Below, piece by piece: positions 24,358 to 60,669 of a DNA stretch of 64,000 nt. The notes beneath the pieces are model-generated. The model had not been told where the DNA came from. It was given only the letters and a program-made list of their open reading frames with translations, and did not search any database. Origin of the DNA: an uncultured Acidimicrobiales bacterium (lineage in GTDB: Bacteria > Actinomycetota > Geothermincolia > Fen-727 > Anoxymicrobiaceae); contig CAZEJS010000001.1 of NCBI GenBank assembly GCA_964512645.1, positions 825 to 64,824 of the forward strand, written 5' to 3'. The translations under genes and the position numbers were made by a program. Numbering within the stretch: the stretch's first letter is position 1; every line of letters starts with the position of its first letter.

Positions 24358-24380
24358 CCTCTGGGACTACTAGGAGGGAG

Positions 24381-32575: not shown

Positions 32576-32577
32576 CA

Positions 32578-34368: not shown

Positions 34369-34407
34369 GAGGCCCGCTGACCACCGTTGCCCTACGGGAG
34401 GTTCGAG

Positions 34408-38679: not shown

Positions 38680-38713
38680 CGTAATAAAACGAGGGCGGAC
38701 AACGCCCGCCCTC
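38680..38713 (-). terminator. Rho-independent terminator ending the Wood-Ljungdahl operon after acsE (convergent junction with the fdh block)
   Basis: GAGGGCGG-acaacgc-CCGCCCTC stem. The U-rich tract GUUUUAUUA follows only on the minus-strand reading. Confidence 0.65.
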
Positions 38714-38777: not shown

Positions 38778-39659
38778 TTAGAGCTCGAGGTAGGAGGCCG
38801 CGAAGAGGGTCTCCTCGTGGAAGAGCTTGACGGTCTTCTTGATCGCCAGCTGCAGCGGGTCGCTCAGGTCGAGCTCGCCCTCCTTGAGCCCCTCGGCGAT
38901 CTGCACCAGGTCGTACTCCGGGCTCTCCATGCGCGCGACCGCCATCAGTTTCTCGTCATTGGGGTCGACGATCGCCGCGTCCATGCCGTGGCCCATCAGG
39001 GCCGCAAGGTAGATACGGTTGACGAACTCGGCGTTCTCGGTGGTGAGCCCACACTTGTTGCTGACGTTGGACAGGCCGCAAACGAGGTGCGGCTTGTCCG
39101 GGAGCTCGGAGAACATCTGGGTCGCCACCAGGAGGGCGTGCACCTGGTCCTGGGCTACCCCAATGGGGAGCACGATCGGGTCGATCCAGTAATCGTCGTG
39201 CCCGATCCCCGCCGCCTCGAACGCCATCATCAGGTTGTAGCCGTTGGTGACACGCTCCTCGGCGTCACGGGGCACACCGGCCTCGCTTGTGCACAGTCCC
39301 ACCACCTTGGCGTTGTACTCCAGGGCCAGCGGGATGAGACGGTCCATCCGCTCCTGGACGTTGGAGATCGAGTTGATTATCTTGGGGTTCTTGCCCACCT
39401 TGAGGCCGGCTTCCATCGCGTCCATGTTCATCGTGTCCAGCGACAGCGGCAGGTCGGTGACCTCCTCTATCGTCTCCACCATCCACTGCATGAGCTCGGG
39501 GCCGTTCTTGGTGGCCGGCCCGAGGTTGATGTCTATGCAGTCGGGCTTGCCCTCGAGCTGGATCGTCACCATGTCCTGGATGGGGCCCTTTTCGCGGGCG
39601 TTCATGGCCTCCTTGATCTTCGTGGTGATCACGTTGACCTTCTCGGCGATGATGTACAT
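38778..39659 (-). CDS. acsE: Methyltetrahydrofolate:corrinoid iron-sulfur protein methyltransferase (pterin-binding / DHPS-like fold)
   Basis: 293 aa pterin-binding TIM barrel. Last gene of the acs operon. Confidence 0.85.
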   Translation of the reverse strand: MYIIAEKVNVITTKIKEAMNAREKGPIQDMVTIQLEGKPDCIDINLGPATKNGPELMQWMVETIEEVTDLPLSLDTMNMDAMEAGLKVGKNPKIINSISNVQERMDRLIPLALEYNAKVVGLCTSEAGVPRDAEERVTNGYNLMMAFEAAGIGHDDYWIDPIVLPIGVAQDQVHALLVATQMFSELPDKPHLVCGLSNVSNKCGLTTENAEFVNRIYLAALMGHGMDAAIVDPNDEKLMAVARMESPEYDLVQIAEGLKEGELDLSDPLQLAIKKTVKLFHEETLFAASYLEL

Positions 39660-39712: not shown

Positions 39713-40543
39713 CTATTCCAACATCCTGTGGGCGAAGTACGAACTCCGCACCAGGGGCCCGGCGGCAACCGCCTCGAACCCCATCGCCAGCGCAGCCTCC
39801 TCGAGCGAAGCGAACTCCTCCGGTTCCCAGTAGCGCTCCACCGGCACGTTCGCCGCGCCCGGCCTGAGGTACTGTCCGACGGTCAGGAGCCTGCAGCCGG
39901 ACTCCAGCAGGTCCTGCATCAGGGCGAGGACCTCGTCCCGGCTCTCCCCGAGCCCGACCATCAGTCCGCTCTTGGTCCGGAACCCCGCCCCGGCGGCCCT
40001 GGATAGCACCCCCAGTGACCTGGAGTAGGCGGCCTGCGGCCTTGCCGTGGCGTAGAGCCTCTCCACCGTCTCCACGTTGTGGTTGAAGACGTCGGGCCCG
40101 GCGGCCAGCACCGTGTCCACGTCGCCGCTCCGCCCGGCGAAATCGGGTACCAGCACCTCGGTCGTCACCCCGGGCGCCGCGTCCCTGACGGCCTCCACCA
40201 CGGCGGCGAAATGCCCCGCCCCCCCGTCGGGCAGGTCGTCCCTGGTCACCGACGTCACCACGACGTGCCTCAGGCCCATCTCCGCGGCCGCTTTCGCCAC
40301 CCTCTCAGGCTCGTCTTCCTCGAGCGGACCGGGCGTCCCCCCGGGGACCGCGCAGAACCCGCAGTCCCTGGTGCACCTGTCGCCCATTATCATGAACGTC
40401 GCGGTCCCCGCTTCGAAGCATTCCCCGCGGTTCGGGCACTTGGCCCCTTCACAGACCGTGTTCAGGCGTTGCTCCGCGAGGACTCCTTCAACCCTGGACA
40501 CCTGCGGCCCGCACCTGACAGGCCTCAGCAGCCAGCGGGGCAT
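39713..40543 (-). CDS. lipA: Lipoyl synthase
   Basis: ORF 39713..40573. ATG 40543 gives MPRWLLRPV... (compare E. coli KPEWMKIKLP). CEGAKCPNRGEC auxiliary-cluster cysteines and radical-SAM CTRDCGFC motif. Confidence 0.85.
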   Translation of the reverse strand: MPRWLLRPVRCGPQVSRVEGVLAEQRLNTVCEGAKCPNRGECFEAGTATFMIMGDRCTRDCGFCAVPGGTPGPLEEDEPERVAKAAAEMGLRHVVVTSVTRDDLPDGGAGHFAAVVEAVRDAAPGVTTEVLVPDFAGRSGDVDTVLAAGPDVFNHNVETVERLYATARPQAAYSRSLGVLSRAAGAGFRTKSGLMVGLGESRDEVLALMQDLLESGCRLLTVGQYLRPGAANVPVERYWEPEEFASLEEAALAMGFEAVAAGPLVRSSYFAHRMLE

Positions 40544-40573
40544 CCGGTCCCTGGAGCGAGGCTCCGACAGCAT

Positions 40574-41626
40574 CTACGAGTACCTCGCCCGCATCGCCTC
40601 CGAGACCTCCCGGGTCAGCACCAGCGCCCTCTCGGCGACCTCCATGCTCGCGGGCCCCAGCCCGCAGGACGGTGAGACCAGCGACCTTGCCGCGACAAGG
40701 CCCCTGTCGATCCCCTGCCCCTCCAGCACGTCGAACCCGCTCTCCAGCATCGAGACCAGCTCGGCAGATGTGATGCTGGTAACGCTCTCGTCCTTGGGGA
40801 TGACCCCCCAGGCCAGAGAGCCACCGCGCTCGAGGTGCCTGGCGATGTCGGGACCGTACGCAACGAACGGCTCCATGTACTCGAACGCATCGAAGTGGAC
40901 CACGTCCACCCCAGTGGCGAACACGAGCGACCAGTCCGTGTTCCCGCAACAGTGCACGCCCGTGATATCCGCGCCGCACCCCGCGAGGCACTCGGTGATG
41001 TCGTTGACGACCTGCTCCCTGCTGACGCTTATGAGCGCAGAGCCCACTGAATGCAGGTAAGGCTCGTCGTAGAACATCACCACTTTCGCCCCGGGCGCGG
41101 CCTTTCTCAGCTCTCGGCTCTGCCACGCGCCCTTGAGCGCGAGCCCCTTCACTATCGCCTGCTCCAGGTCAGGATGGTAGATGCTCGCCTTCCTGTTCTG
41201 GTCGGTGACGGTGAGCCCGAACGAGGCAGGGCCCGTAACGTGGCCTTTCACATATGGCCTGCTCTCGAGGTCGCTCGCGAAAGCTCCCCCGAGGAACGCC
41301 GCAAGCCCGTGTGCGTACTCGCCCGATATCGCGAACCTGTCCAGGTCTTCGGCGATGACGGCCTCGTAGAAACTCTCGAGCTCCTCCGGAAGCGCGTCGT
41401 CCACCTGGAACCACAAGCGCTTGGCGGCCTCGTCAACCCTGATCCCCGGAAGGCCCTGCGAGTACTGGGCGTACATGTTCTCGAGGAAGCCTATCTTCGG
41501 CAGCTGCGGCCAGGCCGCTACCTCGCCGAAGGCTTCCAACATGAGCTTCACGGCCTGCTCAGCATCCGTGTGCGGCAGGCTACCGATAGCTATCATCGCG
41601 AACCACGGTTCGAAATCACCAGTCAT
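40574..41626 (-). CDS. Core-MetE-like protein: stand-alone cobalamin-independent-methionine-synthase catalytic (C-terminal) domain of the URO-D/CIMS fold. Candidate methylcorrinoid:homocysteine methyltransferase
   Basis: 350 aa. Motifs parallel the MetE C-terminal domain: VKGHVTGPASF (MetE ...GP.T.), VVMFYDEPYL (IQIDEPA), GVHCCGNTDW (HMCYS Zn ligands), SPSCGLGP (PDCGLK). No N-terminal folate-binding half. Confidence 0.7.
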   Translation of the reverse strand: MTGDFEPWFAMIAIGSLPHTDAEQAVKLMLEAFGEVAAWPQLPKIGFLENMYAQYSQGLPGIRVDEAAKRLWFQVDDALPEELESFYEAVIAEDLDRFAISGEYAHGLAAFLGGAFASDLESRPYVKGHVTGPASFGLTVTDQNRKASIYHPDLEQAIVKGLALKGAWQSRELRKAAPGAKVVMFYDEPYLHSVGSALISVSREQVVNDITECLAGCGADITGVHCCGNTDWSLVFATGVDVVHFDAFEYMEPFVAYGPDIARHLERGGSLAWGVIPKDESVTSITSAELVSMLESGFDVLEGQGIDRGLVAARSLVSPSCGLGPASMEVAERALVLTREVSEAMRARYS

Positions 41627-41718
41627 AGGGCCCGGCCCCTTCCCGCCTTCTGACCACTCTGCATCACCAGATGTCTGCTATGCGCAAAGGGGTCTGACCC
41701 CGACTGCGATCAGTGCCC

Positions 41719-42669
41719 TTAAAGGGCGTTGATATCCAGCTCTGCCTCTTCGAGGATCCTCGGTACGACGTCCTCCTTGCCGATGGCCATGATGTGCACG
41801 CCGTCAGCGAGGTTCTCTTCGCGGATCCGCTTGATGTGCCGCGCCATGATCTTGATGCCAACATCGATGCCTTTGCCCTTCTCGGCAGCCGACATCTCTT
41901 CGATGAGGTCATCGGGCACGAAGACGCCAGGTACGTTCTTGTTCATGTACTTGGCCATGCCCGCCGACGTGAGCAGAACCAGGCCCGCCTGCATCTTGAT
42001 CGGGTACTGGCGCGCGATCTTCATGAACTTGGCGAAGTTGTCCATGTCGTAGATCGCCTGGGTCTGGAACCACTCGGCTCCGGCCTCGACCTTCTTCTCG
42101 AACTTGATGAGCTGCGGCTCGATGGGCACGGCCTCGGGCGTCACGATGGCGCCCTTGTAGAACTTGACGGGAGCGTTCATCTCGTTCCCGCCGAGGTCCT
42201 TGCCCTCCTCCATCAGGCGGATCATGTTCAGGAGCTGGACCGACTCGAGGTCGAATACCGCCTTGCACTCCTTGTGGTCGCCCGTGGGGACGCTGTCGCC
42301 GGTGAGGCACAGCACGCTGCGGACGCCCCGGGTGTAGGCGAAGAGCATCTCGTTCTCCAGCGACATGCGGTTGCGGTCACGGCAGGTGACCTGCAGGTTC
42401 GGCTCGCCGCCTCTCTCGAGGATTATCAGCGCGGTAGCCAGCGACGGGTAGCGCATCACCGAGCTCTGGTTGTCGGTGATGTTCATCGCGTGCACCTTGT
42501 CCTTGAGGAGGTCGACGTGCTCGATGACCTCCTCGATGTCAGGTCCCTTGGGGGGCCCGATCTCGCCGGAGACCAGGAACTTGCCGGACTCCAGAACCTC
42601 CTGAATGGAAGGCTTAGAGTTCTTGACCTTGAGTTCTTCCCATACCTTCTCTACGCTCATCCTATTCAC
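41719..42669 (-). CDS. metF: Methylenetetrahydrofolate reductase, acetogen-type large subunit (alternative ATG start 42660)
   Basis: MTHFR TIM-barrel (AEWFQTQAIYD, ...LVLLTSAGMAKYMNKNVPGVFVP). Overlaps the metV stop. Confidence 0.85.
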   Translation of the reverse strand: MNRMSVEKVWEELKVKNSKPSIQEVLESGKFLVSGEIGPPKGPDIEEVIEHVDLLKDKVHAMNITDNQSSVMRYPSLATALIILERGGEPNLQVTCRDRNRMSLENEMLFAYTRGVRSVLCLTGDSVPTGDHKECKAVFDLESVQLLNMIRLMEEGKDLGGNEMNAPVKFYKGAIVTPEAVPIEPQLIKFEKKVEAGAEWFQTQAIYDMDNFAKFMKIARQYPIKMQAGLVLLTSAGMAKYMNKNVPGVFVPDDLIEEMSAAEKGKGIDVGIKIMARHIKRIREENLADGVHIMAIGKEDVVPRILEEAELDINAL

Positions 42670-43324
42670 CGCCCTTCACGCGCTCGATCACCAGGCGGCC
42701 CGGCTTCATGACCGGGTTCCAGTTCTTGGGCGGCTGGTATTCCTTCATCTTGGACAGCTTGCCCTCCCGCTCGAGCTGCTGATAAATGAGGGTCCACGCG
42801 CAGTCCTTCTCGGGGTCCACCTCGCACTTCCCGTCGTTGGTTCCGCCGCACGGCCCGTTGAGGATGCCCTTGTGGCAGCGGGTCACCGGGCATATCGCGC
42901 CGGTCATCTCCAGCACGCAGTCTCCGCACAACTGGCACTTCTCCTCGAACTGGCCGACCCGCATCACGTTGCCGAGGAACAACGTATCGTTGGAAGGAAA
43001 CACGGGTTTGTCCGTGGCGTTCCTCGCCGCCTGGGTACCCGCCCCGCAGGACATGACAAGGAAGGCGTCGGCCTTCTCGACCTCGTCCTTGTGGGCGCGG
43101 AACTCCTTCTTGATGTCCAGCTCCTGGCAGCCGGTCTCGGGGACGAAGCCGCCGGTAACGACCTTGCCCTCGGCCGTGAGCTTCTCGGTCATCTCCTTAA
43201 TCTGGTCTTCGCCACCGGTCTGGCACGCGGTGGCACAGTCGCCGCAGCCGATCAGGAAAACGCTCTTGGCGTCTTCAAGCTCTTTGAGGATGGCCTCAAA
43301 GGCTTTCTGCTTGGTTATGATCAC
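42662..43324 (-). CDS. metV: Methylenetetrahydrofolate reductase small Fe-S subunit
   Basis: 220 aa, Cys-rich (CGDCATAC, CQLCGDCVLEMTGAICPVTRC, CGGTNDGKCEV). GTG start preceded by AAGGAGGAG. Confidence 0.85.
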   Translation of the reverse strand: MIITKQKAFEAILKELEDAKSVFLIGCGDCATACQTGGEDQIKEMTEKLTAEGKVVTGGFVPETGCQELDIKKEFRAHKDEVEKADAFLVMSCGAGTQAARNATDKPVFPSNDTLFLGNVMRVGQFEEKCQLCGDCVLEMTGAICPVTRCHKGILNGPCGGTNDGKCEVDPEKDCAWTLIYQQLEREGKLSKMKEYQPPKNWNPVMKPGRLVIERVKGGE

Positions 43325-43360: not shown

Positions 43361-44713
43361 CTATGAGCTCGCCACGTAGTTGCGCAGGTAAGAGGAAATG
43401 TCCGCCGCCTCGCGCGGCCCTATCAGTATCTCCCAGTCGGCGAGCTCCTCGTCGAGCTCTCCGGATATCTGCGCCACGTACCCGGGGATGATCAGCTTCC
43501 GGTGGCCGACCTTCTCGGCGATCCCCGAGGTGTTGACGAACTTGGCAATTATGTCCGGCACGAACTTGCCGGCGGCCCAGGCGGTAAGCACCGACTGCCC
43601 CTCGGAATCGACCACGCCGAGCCAGGCGTCGACCTTGGAGGCCTCGATCTCCCCGGAGACGATGAAGTACGTCAGCGAGAAGTTGGTGGTGACCATCACC
43701 GGCGAATCGGGACCGGGGCTGCCGATCTCGTAGAACTTGGCGTCGACCGCCATCGGCTTCTGGGGGTCGGTGTACACGTTCTGGATCTCCACCTGCAGCG
43801 GGTACTGCAGCCACGCCTCGGCGCTGGAGAGCACCACGATGTCCGCGTACTTGGCGATGTAGACCCCGGCGTACGCGCCCTGGAGGAACTCGTCGTCGGT
43901 CTCCTCCGCCGGGAGCGTGATGATCGGGAACCCGAACGGCTTGAACTTGGCGGTAAGGGCGCCCTTCCTTATCTGGATAACGGCCTCGAAAGTCTCCTTG
44001 AGGGTCCTGGTGCCGGGGTCGAGGACCAGGTCCTTGAGCTCCATGCCGGCCGCCTTCTCGGACAGGTCGGCCAGGTCGTCCAGGGAAGCCCCTTTCAGCA
44101 CCAGCGGCAAGCCCTTCTCCTTCGCCAGCGCGCCCATGGCGTCAATGTTTGCCGCCGTCGCGCAGTACATCAGCGGGTTCTTGTCGCCGATCTTCTCCAG
44201 CGCGGCCTTCATGACCCCGGCGTCCTCGGTCATGGGCATCAGCGCGCAGTCGGTCATGCCCGCGACCTTTCCGGCGAAGTCGGCGAACTTCCCGGCGTCC
44301 CCGGACTCGCACTTCAGCGCCACCAGCTTGACCTCGAGGTGCTGGCCCACGCGGTCCCAGGAGTCCGCGTTCACCGCTTCGATCTTGACCTTGAGCTCGT
44401 CCTCGGACATCGCGTCCGAGACCAGCACTCCCATGCCCGGAGGGTTCATGAACCGCTTCTCGTGCCTGAAGAGCACCAGCTCCTCGCCTGTGGTGAACTC
44501 CTTGGCCCCCTGTCCGATTATTACTCCCCTCACCGGCGGGGCGGCCGCGTCGGCCAGGGCCGCCTTCGCCTCGTCCGAGACGTGCGGGCAGTCTTCGAGC
44601 TTCGCCTGGCCGCCCGCGAGCTTCATCGCGAACGCGAGACAGGTGGGTAGCTTGCACTCACCGCAGTTCGTCTTCGGGAGCAGCTTGAAAATATCGAGAC
44701 CGCTCAGTGCCAT
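43361..44713 (-). CDS. acsC: Corrinoid iron-sulfur protein large subunit
   Basis: 450 aa. N-terminal [4Fe-4S] motif CGECKLPTC, cobalamin-binding C-terminal Rossmann region. Confidence 0.9.
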   Translation of the reverse strand: MALSGLDIFKLLPKTNCGECKLPTCLAFAMKLAGGQAKLEDCPHVSDEAKAALADAAAPPVRGVIIGQGAKEFTTGEELVLFRHEKRFMNPPGMGVLVSDAMSEDELKVKIEAVNADSWDRVGQHLEVKLVALKCESGDAGKFADFAGKVAGMTDCALMPMTEDAGVMKAALEKIGDKNPLMYCATAANIDAMGALAKEKGLPLVLKGASLDDLADLSEKAAGMELKDLVLDPGTRTLKETFEAVIQIRKGALTAKFKPFGFPIITLPAEETDDEFLQGAYAGVYIAKYADIVVLSSAEAWLQYPLQVEIQNVYTDPQKPMAVDAKFYEIGSPGPDSPVMVTTNFSLTYFIVSGEIEASKVDAWLGVVDSEGQSVLTAWAAGKFVPDIIAKFVNTSGIAEKVGHRKLIIPGYVAQISGELDEELADWEILIGPREAADISSYLRNYVASS

Positions 44714-44819: not shown

Positions 44820-47006
44820 TTACGCGAGCATCGGGTCCATCGTGAGCGCGGGGTGCTCCTTCTCCGTCAGGAACGGCAGGATCTCCTCCTCGGTCACCCC
44901 GACGGTCTCGTCGGCGATCTTGTCGATGAAGTCGGGAGTTCCCAGCTCCTCGGCCCGCCTGTCGAGCTGCTCGCGCAGTGTCTCCTTGAGCTCCTTCGGC
45001 ATCCAGACGATGCGGTGGAAGCCGCCGTCGGCGCTGATGAACTTCTTGGAGGTTATGTAAACTTTGCCGATGCCGACGAATCCCGGGGTGACGTTCCCTC
45101 CGCCAACCGAGCCGGCGAGCGTCGAGAAGGACATGCCGCATGGAGTCTCCTTGCCGGTGAACTCCCTGTTGACGATCATGACCCCGTTGCATATCGGCAG
45201 GAACGCCACAATGCACTCGAAGCAGCCGCACGACGTCATCGGATCTTCCATCATCGTGTAGGCGTTGAACTTGTCCAGCTTCTGCCCGGAGTTATCGTAA
45301 ACGAACTTGTTGACGTTGACCCACTGGCCCTTGTCCTCGTCGATAGCGTCGCCCTTGGGGATGGGCTGGTTGGGTCCGGTGGGGTCGATCTCGTAGGCCG
45401 CCTTGCAGTCGAGCCAGTTGTAGGCTCCGCAGAGCCCGAGGCGCTCGGGCGTGACCACGCAAACGTGGGTGGGCGCGAACGACTGGCAAAGCGTGCACGA
45501 GTAGTAGATGTCCGTGGTCTCGTCGGTCATGCCGGCGGTGCGCTCGTCGCGCTCCGCGTACTTGGCGCGCGCATTGGCCAGCCACTCTTTGCACGGAGCC
45601 TCCTCTGTGTAGAGAGTGACCTCGACCTTGTCGACTATCGCCGGGAACTCGCCCAGCAGCTTGGCGTGGAGTATCTCGCCGTAGTCCTTGATCTTGAAGC
45701 CCTTGGACTGGGCCTTCTTGCTGATGCGCGTCCAGACGATATCGCGCTGGCCCATGTGCCAGATGCCCTCGGCCCCGTTGATGAGGTGGTGGCACTGGCG
45801 CTCGAGGATCGACTCGAAATCCTCCTGCATCTTCCGGCCGGCCACGTGGATCACGATTCCCAGCGGAAGGGCCGCGCCGGCCTCGATGTCGTCGATCTCC
45901 GGCCCGACCACGGTGATCTTGCCGTCCTCGACCTCGTCCATCTCCTTCATCTCCACGAACTCGAACGCCGGAGTGATGTTGCCTCCGAACTGGCAGTACA
46001 TGTCCTCCTTGCGGATGCGCTCGCCCTCGAAGGCCGGCCCGTAGGCCATGGGGATGGGGACCTTGGTGACCTGTATCTTCAGACCGCGAACCTCGACCGC
46101 CTTCTGGACGATCTGGTCGTGGGGTATGTTGGAAACCACGTGCTCGTAGGTGCAGACTCCCGTTGGCAGGATCTCCGGTATGGGCGTGTCGGCGATCGTC
46201 GGGAAGCCGTAGTTGATAGCGCCCGCGGCGTTCGCGTACCACTCGTCGGTGACCTCGCCCAGCGCCATGACAAACGCGAATATCCGGTTCTTGTTGTAGA
46301 GCAGGACCTTGCGGTAGTCGCCCGGCTGCGCGCCCCCGAAGCTCATCGCCGCGCGGGCGGCGAACCCCAGCGAGTACACCGCGGAGCCTATCTCGCGCCC
46401 GTAGGGCACGATGCGGGTCTCCCAGCCGAGCTGGACCCCGATGCTGTCGAGCTGCTCGGCCACCGTGGTGCCGTTGAAATTGCCGCTCGTCCAGACGTAG
46501 AGGTTCTTCTCCTGGAGTTCCTTGACTATGCTCTCGGCGGTCTGGGGATCGGGCGCCGAACCTGCGAGCGCGCAGAAACCGGGCGCCGATCCGTCGACGA
46601 ACTCGACGCCCCTCTCGCGCATTATCACGTCGTCGGCGGCGCCCAGCCATATCCCGTCGACCGGGTTGGGGCCGTCGATGTACTTGATGGCCTCTTCGAG
46701 CTCCTCCATGAACAGGGTCGCCATCCCCGCGTCCAGCCCCGGCCCCAGGTAAGGGGTCCAGAGGCCGTCCCTGGGGAGAGGGGGGATCAGGTCCTCGGCG
46801 ATCTTCATGACCTTGCCGAAATCACCGAGTTTCTCGACCTTCTCGCCGGTCATGGCGTAGATTATCGGGAGGTAGTAGGCGGTGTTGGGAAACGCCACCT
46901 CCTGGTTCTCCCCGTGCTTCTGCAGGGCCTCGTCGATCCGCGCAGCTACCCTGTCGTGGATGGCGTGCGCTCCTCTGATCGCGGCACTTAGAATTATCTT
47001 GGACAT
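44820..47006 (-). CDS. acsB: Acetyl-CoA synthase (A-cluster subunit)
   Basis: 728 aa, collinear with Moorella AcsB along its whole length (AYYLP..., CTLCQSFAPTHVCVVTPERLGLCGA, MTSCGCFECIVAFLP, FIDKIADETVG). RBS AAGGAGGAG. Confidence 0.95.
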   Translation of the reverse strand: MSKIILSAAIRGAHAIHDRVAARIDEALQKHGENQEVAFPNTAYYLPIIYAMTGEKVEKLGDFGKVMKIAEDLIPPLPRDGLWTPYLGPGLDAGMATLFMEELEEAIKYIDGPNPVDGIWLGAADDVIMRERGVEFVDGSAPGFCALAGSAPDPQTAESIVKELQEKNLYVWTSGNFNGTTVAEQLDSIGVQLGWETRIVPYGREIGSAVYSLGFAARAAMSFGGAQPGDYRKVLLYNKNRIFAFVMALGEVTDEWYANAAGAINYGFPTIADTPIPEILPTGVCTYEHVVSNIPHDQIVQKAVEVRGLKIQVTKVPIPMAYGPAFEGERIRKEDMYCQFGGNITPAFEFVEMKEMDEVEDGKITVVGPEIDDIEAGAALPLGIVIHVAGRKMQEDFESILERQCHHLINGAEGIWHMGQRDIVWTRISKKAQSKGFKIKDYGEILHAKLLGEFPAIVDKVEVTLYTEEAPCKEWLANARAKYAERDERTAGMTDETTDIYYSCTLCQSFAPTHVCVVTPERLGLCGAYNWLDCKAAYEIDPTGPNQPIPKGDAIDEDKGQWVNVNKFVYDNSGQKLDKFNAYTMMEDPMTSCGCFECIVAFLPICNGVMIVNREFTGKETPCGMSFSTLAGSVGGGNVTPGFVGIGKVYITSKKFISADGGFHRIVWMPKELKETLREQLDRRAEELGTPDFIDKIADETVGVTEEEILPFLTEKEHPALTMDPMLA

Positions 47007-47045: not shown

Positions 47046-48998
47046 CTATTCGATCGACAGTTCGCGTCTCATGGCCATGTCGTAAAGCACGCGTTCGCGC
47101 TTGCCCAGTATTCCAAGCGCATCCCGCTTCATGTCGATAAGGCTCAGCAGCTTCCCGACCATCTTGTCGGGGTCGGGCTCGTAGTGCCAGGAGTTGCCGT
47201 ACTGCTCGAACATGCCCTCGAACAGGTAATCGGTCAGCTCGCTGCTGCCGGTGGTCGGCCAGGTGGTCCCGAACACGACCGCCGCGCCCGAAGCCACGAA
47301 GTACTGCCCGATGGATATCGCCTTCTCGCTCATCCACTCGGGCGCGCACCCCACGGCGGGCAGGTCCGATATGTCGTCGCCCAGGCCACCCTCGTTGACC
47401 ATCGCGGTAAGAGCCACCAGGATGCGGCTGTTGTCCACGCAGGAACCGACGTGGAGCACCGGAGGTATGCCCACGGCCTCACAGATTTCCCGAAGGCCCT
47501 GGGGCATTACGCCCTCCTTGTACGCGATCTCCGGCGTCATGAGTCCGGTCTTGGCCACCGCCTGCGCCGCGCAGCCGGTCATGACCACCAGGCAGCCGTT
47601 GGCCACCAGCTCACTGACAACCCTCACGTGCACGGCGTCATGCGCGACCCTGGGGTTGTTGCACCCTACCACACCCACGACCCCGCGTATGCGGCCGTCG
47701 ATGATCCCGTCGTTGAGGGGCCTGTAGGAGGCGCGGAACTTGCCGCCCAGCATGTAGTTGATGTACTCGTGATCGTACCCGGCGATGAAATCGCTGGTCA
47801 CGTCGGGGATGTCCACCTTTCCCCTGTTGGGGAAATTGTCGATGGCCATCTCGACGATCTTCTTGGCGCTGGAGAGCCCTGTTTCCTCGTGGAACTCGAT
47901 GTGCTCCGCCAGCGGCATCCTGCCCTTGGGGCTGGTGGTGATGACCTTGGTATGGAAGCACTTGGACAGTTCCCCGATCGCCTGGTAGATGCACTGCACG
48001 TCCACCACCATGGCGTCGATCGCGCCGGTCATGATGGCAAGCTCCTGCTGGAGGACGTTCCCGGCCACGGGAATGCCGTGCCTGGAGAGGATCTCGTTGG
48101 CCGTGCAGCAGATCCCGGCGATGTTGATGCCCTTGGCGCCCTTCTCCTCGGCCCTCTTGAGCAGACTCCCGTCCTGGGAGGCCAGGAGTATCATCTCCGA
48201 GAGGAGAGGCTCGTGGCCGTGGACGATTATGTTCACCTGGTCCTCGGAGAGCACCCCCAGGTTGATCTTCGCCTGGAGGGGCGTCGGCGTCCCGAACATG
48301 ATGTCCTGGAGCTCCGTCCCTATCATCGAGCCGCCCCAGCCGTCAGCCAGCGCCGTGCGGGAGCCCTGGCGCATGATGTTCTCCATCTCCTGGTCGACCC
48401 CGATATGGGTACGGTGCATGACCTCGACGACCTCGCGGTCGATTCCGCGGGGGAATATGCCCAGCTTCCTCCATATCTCCTTGCGCTTCTCGGGGGCGCG
48501 CAACCCGAAAGCGAGTTCGCCCTCCTGCTGGCCGAACATCGCCAGGCACTTCTCTCCGACCTCGAGCGCTATCTCCTCCACCGGCCGGTCGCCGACCTCG
48601 ACGTCCAGGTCCGCCGCCACTTCCAGCAGCTTGATCCGGTCCTTGATCTGGTACCCCTCGGCTTCTCCCTTCGCGGCCATGATGAACGTGTGCGCCACCG
48701 CCCTGCCGTGGTCGGAGTGGGCCGCCGCGCCGGCGGCGATCATCCGGCAGAAGTTGCGCGCCGCCACCACACCCGCTGTCGCGCCGCAGATTCCCCGCTT
48801 CTCCTCTTCGCCCTCCTTCTTGGGGGGCGTGAGCCTGCATGGCCCCATAGCGCAGTTCTTGCAGCAGATACCGCTCGCGCCGATCGTGCAGACCTTCATC
48901 GACTCCGTCCGGCTGAAGGCGGTTGACCGTTTTTCCGCCTCAGCCTTCTTGAGCATCTCGACCGACGCTTCACAGGCCGTCCTTTCTTCAAAATCCAA
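47046..48998 (-). CDS. acsA: Carbon monoxide dehydrogenase catalytic subunit (Ni-Fe C-cluster)
   Basis: 650 aa. B/D-cluster N-terminus GICCKNCAMGPCR...GICGATAGVVAARN and C-cluster motifs (GICCTANE, HVGSCVDNSR). The ORF starts on TTG. Confidence 0.9.
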   Translation of the reverse strand: MDFEERTACEASVEMLKKAEAEKRSTAFSRTESMKVCTIGASGICCKNCAMGPCRLTPPKKEGEEEKRGICGATAGVVAARNFCRMIAAGAAAHSDHGRAVAHTFIMAAKGEAEGYQIKDRIKLLEVAADLDVEVGDRPVEEIALEVGEKCLAMFGQQEGELAFGLRAPEKRKEIWRKLGIFPRGIDREVVEVMHRTHIGVDQEMENIMRQGSRTALADGWGGSMIGTELQDIMFGTPTPLQAKINLGVLSEDQVNIIVHGHEPLLSEMILLASQDGSLLKRAEEKGAKGINIAGICCTANEILSRHGIPVAGNVLQQELAIMTGAIDAMVVDVQCIYQAIGELSKCFHTKVITTSPKGRMPLAEHIEFHEETGLSSAKKIVEMAIDNFPNRGKVDIPDVTSDFIAGYDHEYINYMLGGKFRASYRPLNDGIIDGRIRGVVGVVGCNNPRVAHDAVHVRVVSELVANGCLVVMTGCAAQAVAKTGLMTPEIAYKEGVMPQGLREICEAVGIPPVLHVGSCVDNSRILVALTAMVNEGGLGDDISDLPAVGCAPEWMSEKAISIGQYFVASGAAVVFGTTWPTTGSSELTDYLFEGMFEQYGNSWHYEPDPDKMVGKLLSLIDMKRDALGILGKRERVLYDMAMRRELSIE

Positions 48999-49046: not shown

Positions 49047-49985
49047 CTATCCCTTCAGTTCGTCGATGACCTTCCTTACCGTCCTGATGGCATCCGGGTG
49101 CCTCATGATGATCACATCGGCGCCGGCCACGAGAAGGGTGGTCGCGGTGAGTATCTCCCACATGACCCCGCGCTTCTTCTCGTCGCCCCACTGCGGCTCG
49201 TCGGCCGCGGGGGCCTTCGCTTCCTTCGCCTTCCACGCCTCGGGACCGACGTCCGCCAGAAGCGGCATCTGGGTCATGCCGTCGTCCTGGCGCAGTGCGG
49301 CGATCTTGAACCGCTCCATGATGGAGTAGGTGTACTCCAGGCCGTAACCGAGGGCGCCGGTGGTGGGATCGACGAGGATCTTCCCTACGTCCACGCCGAG
49401 GTTGGAGAGAAGGATGTTCAGCTGCTTCGCCAGGTTGACGTCGATGGGCGACTTGGCCGCCACCGTCTGGTTGTATCCGAGCGCCGCCGCTCCGATGGTC
49501 TTGAAGTTGTCCTCCTTCGCCGGCCCCATGACCACGTTCAGCCCTTCGCAGGCCGTCGCCACCGCCTTGAGCACCTCTCCGTCCTTCTCGACGTCCTCCG
49601 AACCGTAGACTATCACCGGTATGCTCACGGCTTCGGCGACCGCCCTGGTGGTCTGCGCGGCGTCGGCGGCGGGCCTGTCGGCGCCCTTGGGATCGGTGCT
49701 CTGCAGACGGAGCGCTATAACGTCGGCCCCCCACTCGTCCTGAGCCTTCTTCGCCCAGGCGACGGGGTCCGACAGGACGTCCTTGAGGGGCTCGGTGACC
49801 GCTTCGGGCCACTCCTCGGGGTTGTCGTCGTAAACCTCGACGGCGATGAGCGGCCGCCTCGGCATGTCGCCTTCCCAGAGATAGAACGGCAGGATGTTCT
49901 CCCCGCCCGCCTTCACATCACCGGTCCCCAGCACGACCTCGCGTATTCTCGAGTCGCTGGTTTCCTTGATCGCCTCAAACGCCAT
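49047..49985 (-). CDS. acsD: Corrinoid iron-sulfur protein small subunit
   Basis: 312 aa TIM-barrel CFeSP small subunit, adjacent to acsA/acsB/acsC. Confidence 0.85.
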   Translation of the reverse strand: MAFEAIKETSDSRIREVVLGTGDVKAGGENILPFYLWEGDMPRRPLIAVEVYDDNPEEWPEAVTEPLKDVLSDPVAWAKKAQDEWGADVIALRLQSTDPKGADRPAADAAQTTRAVAEAVSIPVIVYGSEDVEKDGEVLKAVATACEGLNVVMGPAKEDNFKTIGAAALGYNQTVAAKSPIDVNLAKQLNILLSNLGVDVGKILVDPTTGALGYGLEYTYSIMERFKIAALRQDDGMTQMPLLADVGPEAWKAKEAKAPAADEPQWGDEKKRGVMWEILTATTLLVAGADVIIMRHPDAIRTVRKVIDELKG

Positions 49986-51661: not shown

Positions 51662-52426
51662 TCAACGTTCCAGCAAGCCGTCCATCATCCGCCGTACCGC
51701 CTGGAGGGCGGCCGAATCGGCGCCGATTTCCACCAGCGGTCTCCCCAGCTCGTCCAGCTCGGACACCTCCGGGTCGTCCGGCACTATCCCCGCCAGGTCG
51801 ATGTCGAGTCCCGCCACCTCCGCTGCCACCGCCTCCGACAGCTCGCCCCTCACCCGCGAGAGCACCAGGCGGTAGCGCCCGACACCGATGTCCATCTCCC
51901 GGGCGAGGTCCCTTATCCTCATCGCCGTGGCCAGCCCCCTGTGCGATGGGTCGCTCACTATGAACAGCACATCGACACCGCGGGTGGTGCGCCGGCTGAG
52001 GTGCTCCATTCCCGCCTCGTTATCAATTACCAGATACTGGTAGTTCTTGTTGAGCCTTTCCAGGAACACCCTGAGCATGTTGTTGATCGCGCAGTAACAC
52101 CCCGGGCCTTCGGGCCTGCCCATGCTTATGAGGTCGACGTCCGGCGTCTCGATGAGCGCCTGTTCGATCTGCATTTCCAGGATGTCCTGCTTGGCCATTC
52201 CGGCCGGTATCTGGCCCTTCCGGGTCTTCTCGCTCATCTCTTCGCGGACGGACCCTACCGTACTCTCCAGGCTGAGGCCCAGGGCGAGGTCGAGGTTGCT
52301 GTTGGAGTCCGCGTCGACGGCGAGCACCGGCCCGAGCCCTTTTTCGACCAGGTACTTGACGACCAGGGAAGCGAAGGTGGTCTTGCCCACTCCGCCCTTG
52401 CCGCTGACGGCGAGCACCGTGGTCAA
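51662..52426 (-). CDS. cooC: CODH nickel-insertion accessory ATPase (CooC/AcsF). TTG start overlaps the RACo stop; GTG 52417 is an alternative
   Basis: P-loop AVSGKGGVGKTT, MinD/ParA-type ATPase, 254 aa. Confidence 0.85.
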   Translation of the reverse strand: MTTVLAVSGKGGVGKTTFASLVVKYLVEKGLGPVLAVDADSNSNLDLALGLSLESTVGSVREEMSEKTRKGQIPAGMAKQDILEMQIEQALIETPDVDLISMGRPEGPGCYCAINNMLRVFLERLNKNYQYLVIDNEAGMEHLSRRTTRGVDVLFIVSDPSHRGLATAMRIRDLAREMDIGVGRYRLVLSRVRGELSEAVAAEVAGLDIDLAGIVPDDPEVSELDELGRPLVEIGADSAALQAVRRMMDGLLER

Positions 52427-54399
52427 GCGGTCTCACCCCCGCCGTCCCGGCCCAGCTTCGCGCGCTCTCGCGACTCGGCCAGCCTCTCCATGACCGTCGG
52501 GAACTCCCGCGTATGGGTGTGCGGGAAGAACATCGCCGCCATGTACTGGTCCATGAACTTGGAGCTGGTCGAGAGCTCCAGGTAAGTCATCATCTTGGCT
52601 ATGCGGTCGGCCTCGCCTATCAGGCTCTTGGAGAGGGCCATCAGGTAGCTGCCGAGCAGCGACCCGTTCCCAACGAACTTGATCTTCTCGACGTCGACGT
52701 CCGGGAGCAGCCCGATGATTATCGCCTTGTCTATCTCGAGGTAGCGCCCGAAGGCCCCGGCTATGAGGATCTCCTCCACCATGTCGATGGTCATGCCGAC
52801 TTCCTCCAGGAGGATGTTGATGCCGGCGAAGATCGCGGCCTTGGCCCTCATCAGGTTGTCGATGTCCACGTCGGTTATGACGATGTCACGGTTGGTGCCG
52901 CTCTCGTCGGCCCACGCGAGCACGTACTCCCCGCCAGAATCGCTCCCACGGACCCTGGGCGTGTCCAGCTCGGTGTCGATCTTGCCCCTCTCGTCCATGA
53001 TGCCGGTGAGGAACAGCTCGGCCAGGGTGTCGATCAGCCCGGAGCCGCAGATGCCGATAGGCCGGCGGTTCCCTACGGTGATGATCATCGGCTCGAGCGT
53101 GACCTCGTTGATCCGCACCTGCTCGATCGCCCCCCTGGTGGCCCGCATCCCGTGCTTGACCCCCGCGCCCTCGAACGCCGGGCCGGCGGAGCACGAGCAG
53201 GTCATCAGCCAGTCCTTGTTGCCGAGGGCCATCTCGCCGTTGGTGCCGATGTCGATATAGAGAGTCACTTTCTCGGAATTGAACATCCCCGAGGCCAGCA
53301 CCCCGGCGACTATGTCCCCTCCAACGTAAGAGGCCACGCACGGGGTGCACCGCATGTAGACACCGGAGGCGATGCGGATGCCGATGTTGGAGGCCTTGAT
53401 CCACGGGAAGAACTGGGCCACCGGGATATAGGGGTCAACCCTGATGTAGCGGGGGTCCAGCCCCAGCAGGAGGTGGATCATGGTGGTGTTGCCCGAGATC
53501 ACCAGGTCGGTAATGCTGCAGAACTGCGTGTTCGTCTTCTCCACGACCTGCTGGATCAGGTTCCAGATGGTCTGAACCGCCGCCGACTGGAGCTTCGCCA
53601 GGCCGGTGGAACGCGTGGAATATATTATCCGGCTGATGATGTCCTCGCCGTAAGAGATCTGGCCGTTGTAGTCCGACGCCTCCGCGGTAACCTCGCCGGT
53701 CTGGAGGTCCACGAGCTGGACCGAGACCGTGGTGGTCCCCAGGTCCACTGCGAGCGCCGCCTGGCGCGGGGACGTGTCTCCCTTCTCGATTCGCACCGCC
53801 CTGAGCTCCTGGCCGCGGTCGAGCACCGTCACGGTGACGTCGAAGCTCGAGGCCCTGATGAGCCCGGGCAGCGCCTGGAGCATCGGGAAATCGATAACGA
53901 CGTCCTTCAGGCCGGCCAGGCGAGACAGCTCCCGCTTGATCCTCTCGGAGTCGCTGAGGTTATCTTCCAGTGTCGGCGGATCCATCACCAGGTGGAACTT
54001 GGTGGTGGGAGGGTTGAGCTCCCACTGGGGGAGCCTCTCCGCCCAGTCCTCCGCGGAGAGCGTGTACCCCTTGAGCGGTATCGGGGGACGGCGGGTGAGG
54101 GCGCTCTTGTCGCCCAACTGGGTCTCTATGGGCACCCGGACGTCGGCGTCGCTCTCGATGGTCGCGGAGCAGGCAAGCACGTAACCGCGCTTCACCTCCT
54201 CCTCGGAGAGCTTGGCCGCGAGCTTCTGCTTGACCTCGCCCTTCTCGACGATGACCCTGCACTTGCCGCAGTAGCCCTCGCCCCCGCAGGAAGCGTTGAT
54301 GTGCACGTCCGCCTTCATCGCCGCCCGGAGCAGGTTCTCGCCCTTGTCGACTTCTATGCACCTGTTCTCCGGGTAGAAGCAGACCCTCACTTTTTCCAT
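52423..54399 (-). CDS. Corrinoid-FeSP reductive activase (RACo-like, COG3894): [2Fe-2S] ferredoxin domain + ASKHA ATPase domain
   Basis: ORF 52423..54444. ATG 54399 (MEKVRVCFYPENRC...) is preceded by GGGAGGACGG. Plant-type ferredoxin cysteines (CGGEGYCGKCRV) then an actin-like ATPase core (AVDLGTTTV...). Located inside the acs operon. Confidence 0.8.
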   Translation of the reverse strand: MEKVRVCFYPENRCIEVDKGENLLRAAMKADVHINASCGGEGYCGKCRVIVEKGEVKQKLAAKLSEEEVKRGYVLACSATIESDADVRVPIETQLGDKSALTRRPPIPLKGYTLSAEDWAERLPQWELNPPTTKFHLVMDPPTLEDNLSDSERIKRELSRLAGLKDVVIDFPMLQALPGLIRASSFDVTVTVLDRGQELRAVRIEKGDTSPRQAALAVDLGTTTVSVQLVDLQTGEVTAEASDYNGQISYGEDIISRIIYSTRSTGLAKLQSAAVQTIWNLIQQVVEKTNTQFCSITDLVISGNTTMIHLLLGLDPRYIRVDPYIPVAQFFPWIKASNIGIRIASGVYMRCTPCVASYVGGDIVAGVLASGMFNSEKVTLYIDIGTNGEMALGNKDWLMTCSCSAGPAFEGAGVKHGMRATRGAIEQVRINEVTLEPMIITVGNRRPIGICGSGLIDTLAELFLTGIMDERGKIDTELDTPRVRGSDSGGEYVLAWADESGTNRDIVITDVDIDNLMRAKAAIFAGINILLEEVGMTIDMVEEILIAGAFGRYLEIDKAIIIGLLPDVDVEKIKFVGNGSLLGSYLMALSKSLIGEADRIAKMMTYLELSTSSKFMDQYMAAMFFPHTHTREFPTVMERLAESRERAKLGRDGGGETA

Positions 54400-54552
54400 A
54401 CTGTCACGTCCGTCCTCCCGGCCCGCAGGTGCGCCACCCCGCAACTCGGCAGGTGGCGCACCCTGGCAACGCTCTTCTTCGAAGGCCCCTGCGCCACCAT
54501 GGTCGCGGCCCGATGGCGCATGGCCGCCTGCATCGGTAAGCCTGCGTACCGC

Positions 54553-60572: not shown

Positions 60573-60669
60573 GAGCCCACCTCCCTCCGGCGGTGTTGAT
60601 GTGTCCATTCTAGCCGAACCGGCCCGGCCGCCGGAGGCTCCCGGGTACGACTCGGCGGAGGGCCCGCAT

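What the first reader, a model, noticed from the sequence alone, without database searches (positions are those of the whole stretch)
40574..41626. Core-MetE-like stand-alone methionine-synthase catalytic domain
The protein has the Zn-site pattern of the MetE C-terminal barrel (His-x-Cys...Glu...Cys: GVHCCGNTDW, DEPYL, SPSCGLGP) and the VKGxxTGP homocysteine-binding loop, but lacks the N-terminal folate-binding barrel. Such core-MetE enzymes use methylcobalamin rather than methyl-THF. Its position inside a CFeSP/MeTr operon suggests the corrinoid protein could be the physiological methyl donor.
Basis: partly seen in the sequence, partly recalled or inferred. Interest (0 to 1): 0.7.

Follow-up and report, generated by a model that had tools for sequence, protein, structure and literature searches.

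The report
MesB-type core methionine synthase gene
This gene encodes a short, folate-independent methionine synthase of the already described MesB ("core-MetE") family, sitting inside a carbon-fixation (Wood-Ljungdahl) operon next to the vitamin-B12 protein that is predicted, but not yet shown, to hand it methyl groups.

Summary
The ORF at 40574..41626 (minus strand, 350 aa) is real and belongs to a conserved family. It is a member of the published MesB / bacterial core-MetE family. It scores 257 bits (38% identity) against the Dehalococcoides mccartyi enzyme recovered here, above the published family cut-offs. It also keeps the family's zinc tetrad (His225, Cys227, Asp246, Cys321) and the homocysteine-binding Ser16 and Asp187.

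One detail was wrong: the "DEPYL" motif does not supply the fourth zinc ligand. Asp246 does; DEPYL carries the homocysteine-binding Asp187.

The gene lies in a complete Wood-Ljungdahl operon: fhs, RACo, cooC, fchA, folD, acsD, CODH, ACS, acsC, metV, metF, mesB, lipA, acsE.

The idea that the corrinoid iron-sulfur protein (CoFeSP) is the methyl donor was already published (Deobald 2020; Price 2021). It remains untested.

This analysis adds:
- mesB is linked to Wood-Ljungdahl genes in 20 of 81 bacterial loci across several phyla.
- It is linked to SAM-cycle genes in 27 loci, all Chloroflexota.
- It is linked to homocysteine-synthesis genes (HcyBio) in two loci and in this window.

Verdict: a new member of a known kind, of modest interest.

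The parts
40574..41626 (-). mesB: MesB-type core methionine synthase, 350 aa. Zinc ligands H225, C227, D246, C321. Homocysteine-binding S16 and D187. Conserved VKGHVTGP at 126-133.
   Evidence: ORF. 257 bits and 38% identity to the D. mccartyi MesB ORF in L082. Residue conservation. AF2 model with pLDDT 95.2. Fold matches to MesD and MetE. Identical gene calls on other contigs.
43361..44713 (-). acsC: large, corrinoid- and [4Fe-4S]-binding subunit of CoFeSP. Predicted methyl donor to MesB.
   Evidence: Pfam CdhD 2e-95 plus FeS. NCBIfam NF003195, 580 bits against a cut-off of 306.
49047..49985 (-). acsD: small subunit of CoFeSP.
   Evidence: Pfam CdhD 1e-42. NCBIfam NF003376, 409 bits against a cut-off of 280.
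38778..39659 (-). acsE-like methyl-THF:CoFeSP methyltransferase (divergent). Last gene of the operon. Would load CoFeSP with methyl groups.
   Evidence: Pfam Pterin_bind 2e-15. NCBIfam NF005719, 218 bits, below the cut-off of 259. Conserved about 0.9 kb downstream of mesB in 8 loci.
41719..42669 (-). metF: methylene-THF reductase, immediately upstream of mesB with a 92-nt spacer.
   Evidence: Pfam MTHFR 8e-36. Conserved upstream of mesB in 10 loci.
42662..43324 (-). metV: zinc-ribbon partner subunit of MetF.
   Evidence: Pfam DUF5981 (methylene-THF reductase C-terminal) 2e-36.
52423..54444 (-). RACo/AcsV: reductive activator of the corrinoid protein. Would repair oxidised Co(II) CoFeSP.
   Evidence: Pfam RACo_C_ter, Raco_middle, RACo_linker and Fer2. 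NCBIfam AcsV at 712 bits, below the model's cut-off of 800.
44820..47006 (-). acsB: acetyl-CoA synthase. The competing consumer (or, by acetyl-CoA cleavage, a source) of methyl-CoFeSP.
   Evidence: Pfam ACS_CODH_B_C 4e-124, CdhC, CODH_A_N.
47046..48998 (-). acsA: Ni-CO dehydrogenase.
   Evidence: Pfam Prismane/CODH 1e-164.
39713..40573 (-). lipA: lipoyl synthase. Its start codon directly abuts the mesB stop (TAG|ATG). The pairing is conserved, but its relation to MesB is unexplained.
   Evidence: NCBIfam TIGR00510, 332 bits against a cut-off of 310. Junction sequence. Found immediately downstream of mesB in 7 of the 9 loci that carry it, window included.
59406..60773 (-). HcyBio-family homocysteine biosynthesis enzyme (sulfur incorporation). 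Supplies MesB's substrate.
   Evidence: Pfam HcyBio PF01837 3e-152. The same gene lies directly upstream of mesB in L009 and L040.
58998..59405 (-). NIL-domain/4Fe-4S ferredoxin partner of HcyBio.
   Evidence: Pfam NIL 5e-17 plus Fer4. Paired with HcyBio upstream of mesB in L009 and L040.
38693..38707 (-). Terminator-like hairpin with a T-run, after the acsE-like gene. Probable end of the operon.
   Evidence: Consensus scan only. The number of hits in the region is not above the shuffle expectation, so this is weak evidence.

Best explanation
The gene encodes a MesB-type (bacterial 'core-MetE') methionine synthase. It is a single (beta/alpha)8 barrel homologous to the C-terminal catalytic barrel of MetE.

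Proposed mechanism:
1. A zinc ion held by His225, Cys227, Asp246 and Cys321 binds the homocysteine thiol and turns it into a thiolate. Ser16 and Asp187 hold the amino-acid end.
2. The thiolate attacks the methyl group of a methyl-Co(III) corrinoid, giving methionine and Co(I).
3. The enzyme has no folate-binding barrel, so it cannot take the methyl group from methyl-THF itself.
4. [quoted passage not shown]
5. CoFeSP is loaded from methyl-THF by the AcsE-like methyltransferase. MetF/MetV make the methyl-THF. RACo re-reduces CoFeSP if it is oxidised.
6. Homocysteine comes from the nearby HcyBio/NIL-ferredoxin system.

Together the operon acts like a MetH split into separate proteins, and methionine synthesis taps the methyl pool of the Wood-Ljungdahl pathway directly.

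Shown here: family membership, conserved catalytic residues, fold, operon organisation and recurrent gene linkage. Inferred from the characterised homologue: homocysteine methylation with a methyl-corrinoid donor. Predicted only: CoFeSP as the direct donor.
For: **Membership**
- The cbdbA481-type ORF was recovered from metagenome locus L082 using the published cloning primer. It matches the published descriptors: 343 aa, MTKTDF...KHGTV, His215/Cys217/Asp236/Cys312.
- The target scores 257 bits by phmmer and 38% identity over 328 aa against it. The family cut-offs in Price 2021 are 173 and 130 bits.

**Catalytic residues**
- The HCDC tetrad aligns residue for residue with the D. mccartyi enzyme. 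It is present in 81 of 82 members. D187 is invariant and S16 is in 77 of 82.
- These residues map to E. coli MetE S433, D599, H641, C643, E665 and C726.

**Fold**
- AF2 model pLDDT 95.2.

**Biochemistry of the homologue**
- D. mccartyi core-MetE methylates homocysteine with methylcobalamin (kcat about 60 per s). It does not use methyl-THF and does not complement an E. coli metE mutant.

**Gene context**
- The whole CoFeSP system is in the same operon.
- 20 of 81 loci link mesB to Wood-Ljungdahl genes, in several separate clades: Actinomycetota, Bryobacterales/Acidobacteria, Clostridia, Planctomycetia.
- 27 of 81 link it to SAM-cycle genes identified by sequence and not Pfam-checked (MtnA, MTAP, AhcY, MetK). 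These form one Chloroflexota clade with D. mccartyi MesB branching beside it.
- HcyBio and the NIL-ferredoxin gene lie directly upstream of mesB in L009 and L040, and 14 kb from it in this window.
Against: - No MesB has been shown to accept methyl groups from CoFeSP. In the held literature no paper other than Price 2021 itself mentions MesB together with methionine synthase and corrinoid.
- Sequence similarity to MetE is very weak. Pfam Meth_synt_2 gives only 11.8 bits against a cut-off of 21, there is no PDB sequence or profile hit, and hhalign E is 0.023. The MetE link therefore rests on fold, motif alignment and the intermediate MesB homologue.
- Unlike D. mccartyi, this organism has MetF and AcsE. 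It could also carry MetH or MetE elsewhere in its genome, which would make this MesB redundant or specialised. Price et al. note that some MesB paralogues may use other corrinoid proteins.
- 34 of 81 loci show neither context within the available flanks.
Confidence: 0.75

Rival explanations
1. It is a MesB-type homocysteine methyltransferase, but the physiological donor is a different, dedicated corrinoid protein or a free methyl-cobamide. On this reading the operon position reflects only co-regulation of one-carbon metabolism, not a direct CoFeSP-MesB hand-off.
For: - The D. mccartyi enzyme works with free methylcobalamin in vitro, though with a high KM of about 240 uM.
- Price et al. note that paralogues may bind other corrinoid proteins.
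- In 27 Chloroflexota loci mesB is not next to acs genes at all.
Against: - No other corrinoid-binding protein was found among the window's ORFs.
- Linkage to acsC, acsD, acsB or CODH recurs in several phyla. In methanogens mesB forms an apparent operon with acsCD.
- All 123 MesB-containing reference proteomes encode AcsC or AcsD.
- The high KM for the free cofactor argues for a protein-bound donor.
Confidence: 0.15
2. It works mainly in the opposite, catabolic direction or on another methylated sulfur compound. As an MT-I-like enzyme (similar to MtsA or MtaA) it would move methyl groups from methionine, methanethiol or DMS onto CoFeSP, feeding them into acetyl-CoA synthesis.
For: - The gene sits in an operon whose main flux is methyl-CoFeSP to acetyl-CoA.
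Against: - The residues that hold the amino-acid end of homocysteine (S16, D187) are conserved as in MetE and MesB.
- mesB is linked to SAM-cycle genes and to HcyBio, the homocysteine-forming enzyme.
- Labelling in D. mccartyi shows acetate methyl going into methionine methyl.
- From general chemistry: removing a methyl group from an unactivated thioether onto Co(I) is thermodynamically unfavourable.
- There is no Pfam URO-D match.
Confidence: 0.05
3. It is a uroporphyrinogen decarboxylase or a catalytically inactive MesB-like protein with a non-enzymatic role, like the Chloroflexales MesB-like proteins that have lost the zinc ligands.
For: - One public record names a close homologue a 'uroporphyrinogen decarboxylase/cobalamin-independent methionine synthase family protein'.
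- Price et al. describe an inactive MesB-like subfamily.
Against: - All four zinc ligands are present and conserved. The inactive subfamily has FSHG, YCDQ or YREQ instead.
- URO-D needs no metal (general knowledge).
- Methionine synthases outrank URO-D in both fold searches.
- There is no Pfam or NCBIfam URO-D hit.
Confidence: 0.03

Closest known systems
MesB / bacterial core-MetE of Dehalococcoides mccartyi (cbdbA481, DET0516; Deobald et al. 2020, PMC7005905; family defined by Price et al. 2021, PMC7857596)
   Same: - Single-barrel protein of about 345 aa: 38% identity, 257 bits.
- Identical His/Cys/Asp/Cys zinc tetrad with the same spacing (+2, +21, +96 or +97).
- The same Ser and Asp homocysteine-binding residues.
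- Shared WPQLP, KGxxTGP, DEP, HCCGNTDW and PxCGLG motifs.
- The organism encodes CoFeSP.
   Different: - The D. mccartyi gene sits with SAM-cycle genes (MTAP, SAM synthetase, SAH hydrolase), in an organism that lacks MetF, AcsE and CODH.
- The gene here is inside a complete Wood-Ljungdahl operon that has MetF/MetV, an AcsE-like gene, CODH/ACS and RACo, in an Actinomycetota-like lineage.
- About 9 extra residues lie between the N-terminal motif and the zinc site.
- It has not been characterised biochemically.
Methanogen mesB-acsC-acsD operons (Price et al. 2021, Fig 3B)
   Same: mesB is physically clustered with the genes for the two CoFeSP subunits, which supports direct methyl hand-off.
   Different: Those operons are archaeal. 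Here the linkage is bacterial and sits within a 14-gene operon, with mesB between metF and lipA rather than directly beside acsCD. This analysis found Wood-Ljungdahl linkage in 20 of 81 bacterial loci.
Canonical cobalamin-independent methionine synthase MetE (E. coli b3829; PDB 1t7l, 3ppc, 4ztx)
   Same: - Equivalent residues for zinc (H641, C643, C726) and homocysteine (S433, D599).
- Shared VKGxxTGP motif.
   Different: - No N-terminal folate-binding barrel (Meth_synt_1).
- Asp replaces the zinc ligand Glu665.
- 13-18% identity only, and the Pfam Meth_synt_2 score is below threshold.
- The methyl donor is expected to be a corrinoid, not methyl-THF polyglutamate.
MesD core methionine synthase (Shewanella 3rpd; ACIAD3523) and archaeal MesA/MesC
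   Different: - MesD needs MesX (DUF1852) and oxygen, and occurs in aerobes. No DUF1852 was found in the window.
- MesA and MesC are archaeal and less than 30% identical to MesB.
- The target does not match the NCBIfam methionine synthase model NF002119, which the D. mccartyi MesB ORF matches only weakly (39 bits).
Cobalamin-dependent methionine synthase MetH (functional analogy only)
   Same: The operon carries the same four functions as the MetH modules:
- zinc-dependent homocysteine activation (MesB);
- pterin-binding methyl-THF methyltransferase (the AcsE-like protein matches the MetH folate domain, TIGR02082, 73 bits);
- corrinoid carrier (AcsCD);
- reductive reactivation (RACo).
   Different: - The functions sit on separate polypeptides.
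- Reactivation uses ATP and a reductant (RACo), not SAM.

Membership tests
MesB (bacterial core-MetE) family, Price et al. 2021 | phmmer score of at least 173 bits (profiling cut-off), or at least 130 bits, to D. mccartyi MesB (DET0516/cbdbA481) | tested here: met
   257.4 bits and 38% identity over 328 aa against the L082 ORF. That ORF matches the published cbdbA481 descriptors (343 aa, primer-defined ends, H215/C217/D236/C312). Caveat: the reference came from a metagenome contig, not from the UniProt entry itself.
MesB (bacterial core-MetE) family, Price et al. 2021 | Zinc-coordinating tetrad His-Cys-(Asp/Glu)-Cys, which is lost in the non-enzymatic Chloroflexales relatives | tested here: met
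   H225, C227, D246 and C321 align with H215, C217, D236 and C312. HCDC is present in 81 of 82 family members.
MesB (bacterial core-MetE) family, Price et al. 2021 | Homocysteine-binding residues equivalent to MetE Ser433 and Asp599 (Glu484 is not conserved in MesB) | tested here: met
   S16 (IGSLPH, matching IGSFPQT at 431) and D187 (YDEPYL, matching IQIDEPA, D599). D187 is in 82 of 82 members and S16 in 77 of 82. The Glu484-equivalent position is variable (W72 column), as published.
MesB (bacterial core-MetE) family, Price et al. 2021 | Single catalytic barrel with no folate-binding N-terminal domain | tested here: met
   350 aa. No Meth_synt_1 match. One (beta/alpha)8 domain in the AF2 model. 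Aligns only to the C-terminal half of MetE.
MesB (bacterial core-MetE) family, Price et al. 2021 | The organism encodes CoFeSP (AcsC and AcsD) of the Wood-Ljungdahl pathway | tested here: met
   acsC at 43361..44713 and acsD at 49047..49985, in the same operon.
MesB (bacterial core-MetE) family, Price et al. 2021 | Methylates homocysteine with methylcobalamin but not with methyl-THF, and does not complement an E. coli metE mutant | not testable with these tools
   Biochemical and genetic property, known only for the D. mccartyi enzyme.
Canonical MetE (two-barrel, TIGR01371; Pfam Meth_synt_1 plus Meth_synt_2) | N-terminal folate-binding barrel plus a C-terminal catalytic barrel that scores above the curated thresholds | tested here: not met
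   No Meth_synt_1 match. Meth_synt_2 scores 11.8 bits against a cut-off of 21. No NCBIfam hit. No PDB sequence or profile hit.
Uroporphyrinogen decarboxylase (URO-D) and MtaA/MtbA-type methylcobamide:CoM methyltransferases (Pfam URO-D) | Sequence match to the URO-D family, and these structures being the best fold matches | tested here: not met
   [not shown]
MesD/MesX oxygen-dependent core methionine synthase | Adjacent MesX (DUF1852) gene; aerobic host | tested here: not met
   No DUF1852 among the window's ORFs. The context is a strictly anaerobic Wood-Ljungdahl operon. MesD is nevertheless the best structural match.

The most novel reading that the evidence does not exclude
In these Wood-Ljungdahl bacteria MesB may be more than a housekeeping methionine synthase. 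It could be an integral, co-translated part of the CoFeSP machinery. Two points raise this possibility: the strictly conserved stop/start-abutting mesB-lipA pair placed between metF and acsE, and lpdA and gcvH nearby. MesB, and possibly the lipoyl-protein system, might then act as a regulated branch point or relief valve for the methyl-CoFeSP pool. Alternatively, it might let methyl groups from methionine or methylated sulfur compounds enter acetyl-CoA synthesis. Either would be a role not yet described for any core methionine synthase.
Probability: 0.08. Interest if true: 0.6.

Novelty: new member of a known kind. Interest (0 to 1): 0.3.

Why it matters
Core methionine synthases show how strict anaerobes make methionine without MetE or MetH, and they are discussed as relics of pre-folate methyl transfer. 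The physiological methyl donor of MesB is still only a prediction.

This locus puts every proposed partner in one operon or its immediate surroundings: MesB, both CoFeSP subunits, the methyl-THF:CoFeSP methyltransferase, MetF/MetV, the reductive activator, and a nearby homocysteine-forming system. That makes it a convenient gene set for an in vitro reconstitution that could settle the question.

It also extends operon-level mesB-Wood-Ljungdahl linkage from methanogens to several bacterial phyla, and places MesB in Actinomycetota and Acidobacteriota lineages that the 2021 survey did not list.

On the practical side, public records carry this protein unnamed, as hypothetical, or under loose names such as 'methionine synthase II' or 'URO-D family'. 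It has no Pfam or NCBIfam model above threshold, so a dedicated family model is warranted.

Tried and rejected
1. Direct sequence and profile searches against PDB chains returned only noise. Membership had to go through the MesB homologue and fold comparison.
2. Pfam and NCBIfam do not classify the protein. Only 12 of 34 family members touch Meth_synt_2, with a best E of 1.7e-4.
3. The papers' supplements contain no cbdbA481 sequence. Only the primer sequences were usable. One of the two 20-mer hits (L081) was a chance match inside an unrelated membrane protein.
4. The AFDB Foldseek library was unavailable.
5. I looked for a riboswitch or other regulatory RNA, such as a SAM riboswitch, in the 92-nt metF-mesB spacer and across the whole window. 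There were no Rfam hits. The spacer folds moderately better than shuffles (z -2.76) and a short GC hairpin is retained in L001. Two sequences are too few to claim an element.
6. The URO-D and inactive-paralogue readings were considered and rejected on the conserved zinc tetrad and the fold ranking.
7. The hhalign comparison with E. coli MetE is not significant on its own (probability 2%, E 0.023). I used it only for residue correspondence, which agrees with the published MesB-MetE mapping.
The lineage is inferred only from homologues at 77% identity labelled Candidatus Anoxymicrobiaceae, class Geothermincolia.
Full report
**Observation.** Third-position GC is 0.85, like the surrounding genes. 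The identical 350-aa product has been called independently on six metagenome contigs, including NCBI assembly GCA_029546925.1, with the same gene order metV-metF-ORF-lipA-acsE. The quoted motifs are all present: IGSLPH 14, WPQLP 39, VKGHVTGP 126, YDEPYL 186, HCCGN 225, HFDAF 244, PSCGLG 319.

**Surroundings.** The gene is the third-last of a long minus-strand Wood-Ljungdahl operon:

| Gene | Coordinates |
|---|---|
| fhs | 54553-56268 |
| RACo/acsV | 52423-54444 |
| cooC | 51662-52426 |
| fchA | 50985-51623 |
| folD | 50066-50974 |
| acsD | 49047-49985 |
| CODH | 47046-48998 |
| ACS | 44820-47006 |
| acsC | 43361-44713 |
| metV | 42662-43324 |
| metF | 41719-42669 |
| target | 40574-41626 |
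| lipA | 39713-40573 |
| acsE-like | 38778-39659 |

- The target's TAG stop directly abuts the lipA ATG.
- A terminator-like hairpin follows the acsE-like gene at 38707-38693. None was detected between metF and the target.
- No Rfam family matches anywhere in the window.

**Standard classifiers fail.**
- Pfam gives only a sub-threshold Meth_synt_2 match (E 0.14, 11.8 bits, cut-off 21).
- NCBIfam gives nothing.
- Single-sequence and profile searches of PDB sequences give only noise.
- Yet the protein has 1698 homologues in the large protein collection. None has a precomputed Pfam domain, and their names vary: 'methionine synthase II (cobalamin-independent)', 'URO-D/cobalamin-independent methionine synthase family', 'hypothetical'.
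- It has relatives in at least 594 species-level genomes.

**Family membership.**
- Deobald et al. 2020 (PMC7005905) characterised the D. mccartyi core-MetE, cbdbA481. It is 343 aa, has zinc ligands His215/Cys217/Asp236/Cys312, uses methylcobalamin and not methyl-THF, and does not complement an E. coli metE mutant.
- Price et al. 2021 (PMC7857596) named its family MesB, set bit-score cut-offs of 173 and 130 bits, and predicted CoFeSP as the donor.
- The papers carry no sequence. I therefore used the published cloning primer (ATGACTAAGACCGATTTTTA) for an exact scan of metagenome contigs.
- Locus L082 holds a 343-aa ORF running from MTKTDF to KHGTV, with H215, C217, D236 and C312 exactly as published. 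An MTAP gene lies upstream.
- Against it the target scores 257 bits by phmmer and 38% identity over 328 residues by BLASTP. H225/C227/D246/C321 align to the four zinc ligands, and S16/D187 to the homocysteine-binding Ser and Asp.
- In an 82-sequence alignment the HCDC tetrad is present in 81 members and D187 is invariant.

The target is therefore a MesB.

- The 'Glu' of the zinc site is not in DEPYL. That motif precedes the HxC, and its Asp187 corresponds to the homocysteine-binding Asp599 of E. coli MetE.
- The equivalent of the MetE zinc ligand Glu665 is Asp246, as in the D. mccartyi enzyme.
- VKGHVTGP does match MetE VKGMLTGP (548-555). Its assignment as a homocysteine-binding loop is not supported by the published residue list.

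**Fold.**
- The AlphaFold2 model from the 34-sequence alignment is confident (pLDDT 95.2, pTM 0.93) and forms a single beta/alpha barrel.
- In Foldseek against PDB the top 27 hits are all MetE structures (E about 1e-9 to 3e-7), followed by URO-D, MesD and MtaA.

**Comparative context.** I clustered all ORFs from 80 related genome loci plus the window and placed the contexts on a neighbour-joining tree. The SAM-cycle neighbours were identified by inspecting cluster sequences, not by a Pfam scan.
- 27 loci carry methionine-salvage or SAM-cycle genes next to mesB (MtnA, MTAP, SAH hydrolase, SAM synthetase). They form one Chloroflexota clade with the D. mccartyi enzyme branching beside it. This is the published context of cbdbA481.
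- 20 loci carry Wood-Ljungdahl genes (ACS, CODH, acsC, acsD, metF, metV, acsE-like). They are spread over several separate clades: Actinomycetota, Bryobacterales/Acidobacteria, Clostridia, Planctomycetia and unclassified bacteria.
- No locus has both contexts, and 34 show neither within the available flanks.
- The window also encodes a HcyBio-family homocysteine-forming enzyme with its NIL/4Fe-4S partner (59406-60773, 58998-59405). In two other Actinomycetota loci (L009, L040) the same pair lies directly upstream of mesB.

All three contexts point to homocysteine methylation.

**Mechanism.**
1. The zinc site (H225, C227, D246, C321) activates homocysteine as a thiolate, with S16 and D187 holding the amino-acid end.
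2. The thiolate takes the methyl group from a methyl-Co(III) corrinoid.
3. Without a folate barrel the enzyme cannot use methyl-THF directly.
4. The co-encoded CoFeSP is the most likely donor. It is loaded from methyl-THF by the AcsE-like protein, supplied by MetF/MetV, and repaired by RACo.

Steps 1 to 3 are inferred from conserved residues and from the characterised homologue at 38% identity. Step 4 is a published prediction that remains untested; in the held literature no paper other than Price 2021 itself mentions MesB together with methionine synthase and corrinoid.

**Novelty.**
- The family, its biochemistry and the CoFeSP-donor hypothesis are all published.
- Price et al. report operon linkage only in methanogens (mesB-acsC-acsD) and argue from co-occurrence for bacteria. 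Their order-level table lists no MesB in Actinobacteria.
- The increment here is bacterial, multi-phylum operon linkage, including a Geothermincolia-like Actinomycetota lineage (homologues at 77% identity labelled Candidatus Anoxymicrobiaceae), plus linkage to HcyBio.

This is a new member of a known kind, and its interest is modest (0.3). The locus would suit a reconstitution experiment to test the donor.

Noticed in passing
window 59406-60773 (-) and 58998-59405 (-); also L009 8241-9893 and L040 8150-9724: A HcyBio-family (PF01837) enzyme with its NIL-domain/4Fe-4S ferredoxin partner lies about 3 kb upstream of fhs. By my recollection this is the homocysteine-forming system first described in methanogens, which uses sulfide. 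In two other Actinomycetota loci the same pair sits directly upstream of the mesB homologue. This suggests an archaeal-style route from sulfide via homocysteine to methionine in these bacteria.
   Followed up: partly
window 39713-40573 (-); cluster 19 loci L001, L002, L006, L020, L031, L040, L047, L054: A genuine lipoyl synthase (TIGR00510, 332 bits, above the cut-off of 310) starts directly after the mesB stop (TAG|ATG). It lies within 22 nt downstream of mesB in 7 of the 9 loci that carry it, window included. An LpdA-like gene (56741-58150, + strand) lies beside fhs, and gcvH is at 24348-24770 (+). Why lipoylation genes are embedded in this Wood-Ljungdahl operon is unexplained.
   Followed up: partly
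window 34387-37185 (+), TGA at 35542-35544: The formate-dehydrogenase-like molybdopterin oxidoreductase appears as two in-frame ORFs split by a TGA inside the motif HCARL-U-HAPTV. It is very likely a selenocysteine-containing FdhA. It is flanked by a NuoF-like subunit (32443-34368) and an MvhD/4Fe-4S protein (37213-38601). No SECIS element was sought.
   Followed up: partly
window 41627-41718 (-), the metF-mesB spacer: The 92-nt spacer folds more stably than shuffled sequence (MFE -50.7 kcal/mol, z -2.76), and the fold pairs across the ribosome-binding region. A short GGGG/CCCC hairpin followed by U residues after metF is retained in L001. No Rfam family matches, and there are too few homologous spacers to judge.
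   Followed up: partly
window 38778-39659 (-): The AcsE-like methyltransferase is divergent. Its Pfam Pterin_bind score is only 57 bits. It scores 218 bits against a cut-off of 259 on the NCBIfam methyl-THF:CoFeSP methyltransferase model, and 168 bits against a cut-off of 370 on the CODH/ACS methyltransferase model. Its position is conserved in 8 loci.
   Followed up: no
window 5415-23066 (-): The window holds two full sets of LeuA/CimA-like synthase, LeuC/LeuD-like aconitase-family subunits and an isopropylmalate/isocitrate dehydrogenase-family gene: 5415-10773 plus 10857-12365, and 20255-23066. IlvB, IlvC, IlvD and SerA are also present. The duplication suggests parallel leucine and citramalate or homocitrate-type chain-elongation pathways.
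   Followed up: no
loci L021, L025, L033, L043, L049 (Chloroflexota clade without Wood-Ljungdahl or SAM-cycle neighbours): A second Chloroflexota clade of MesB homologues keeps the HCDC zinc tetrad. Instead of acs or SAM-cycle genes, its members have one or two CooC/ParA-like P-loop ATPase genes adjacent. Their methyl donor and context were not examined.
   Followed up: no
family-wide: This large family (1698 clusters at 90% identity, at least 594 species) has no Pfam or NCBIfam model that reaches threshold. Public records name it inconsistently: hypothetical, methionine synthase II, URO-D family.
   Followed up: yes
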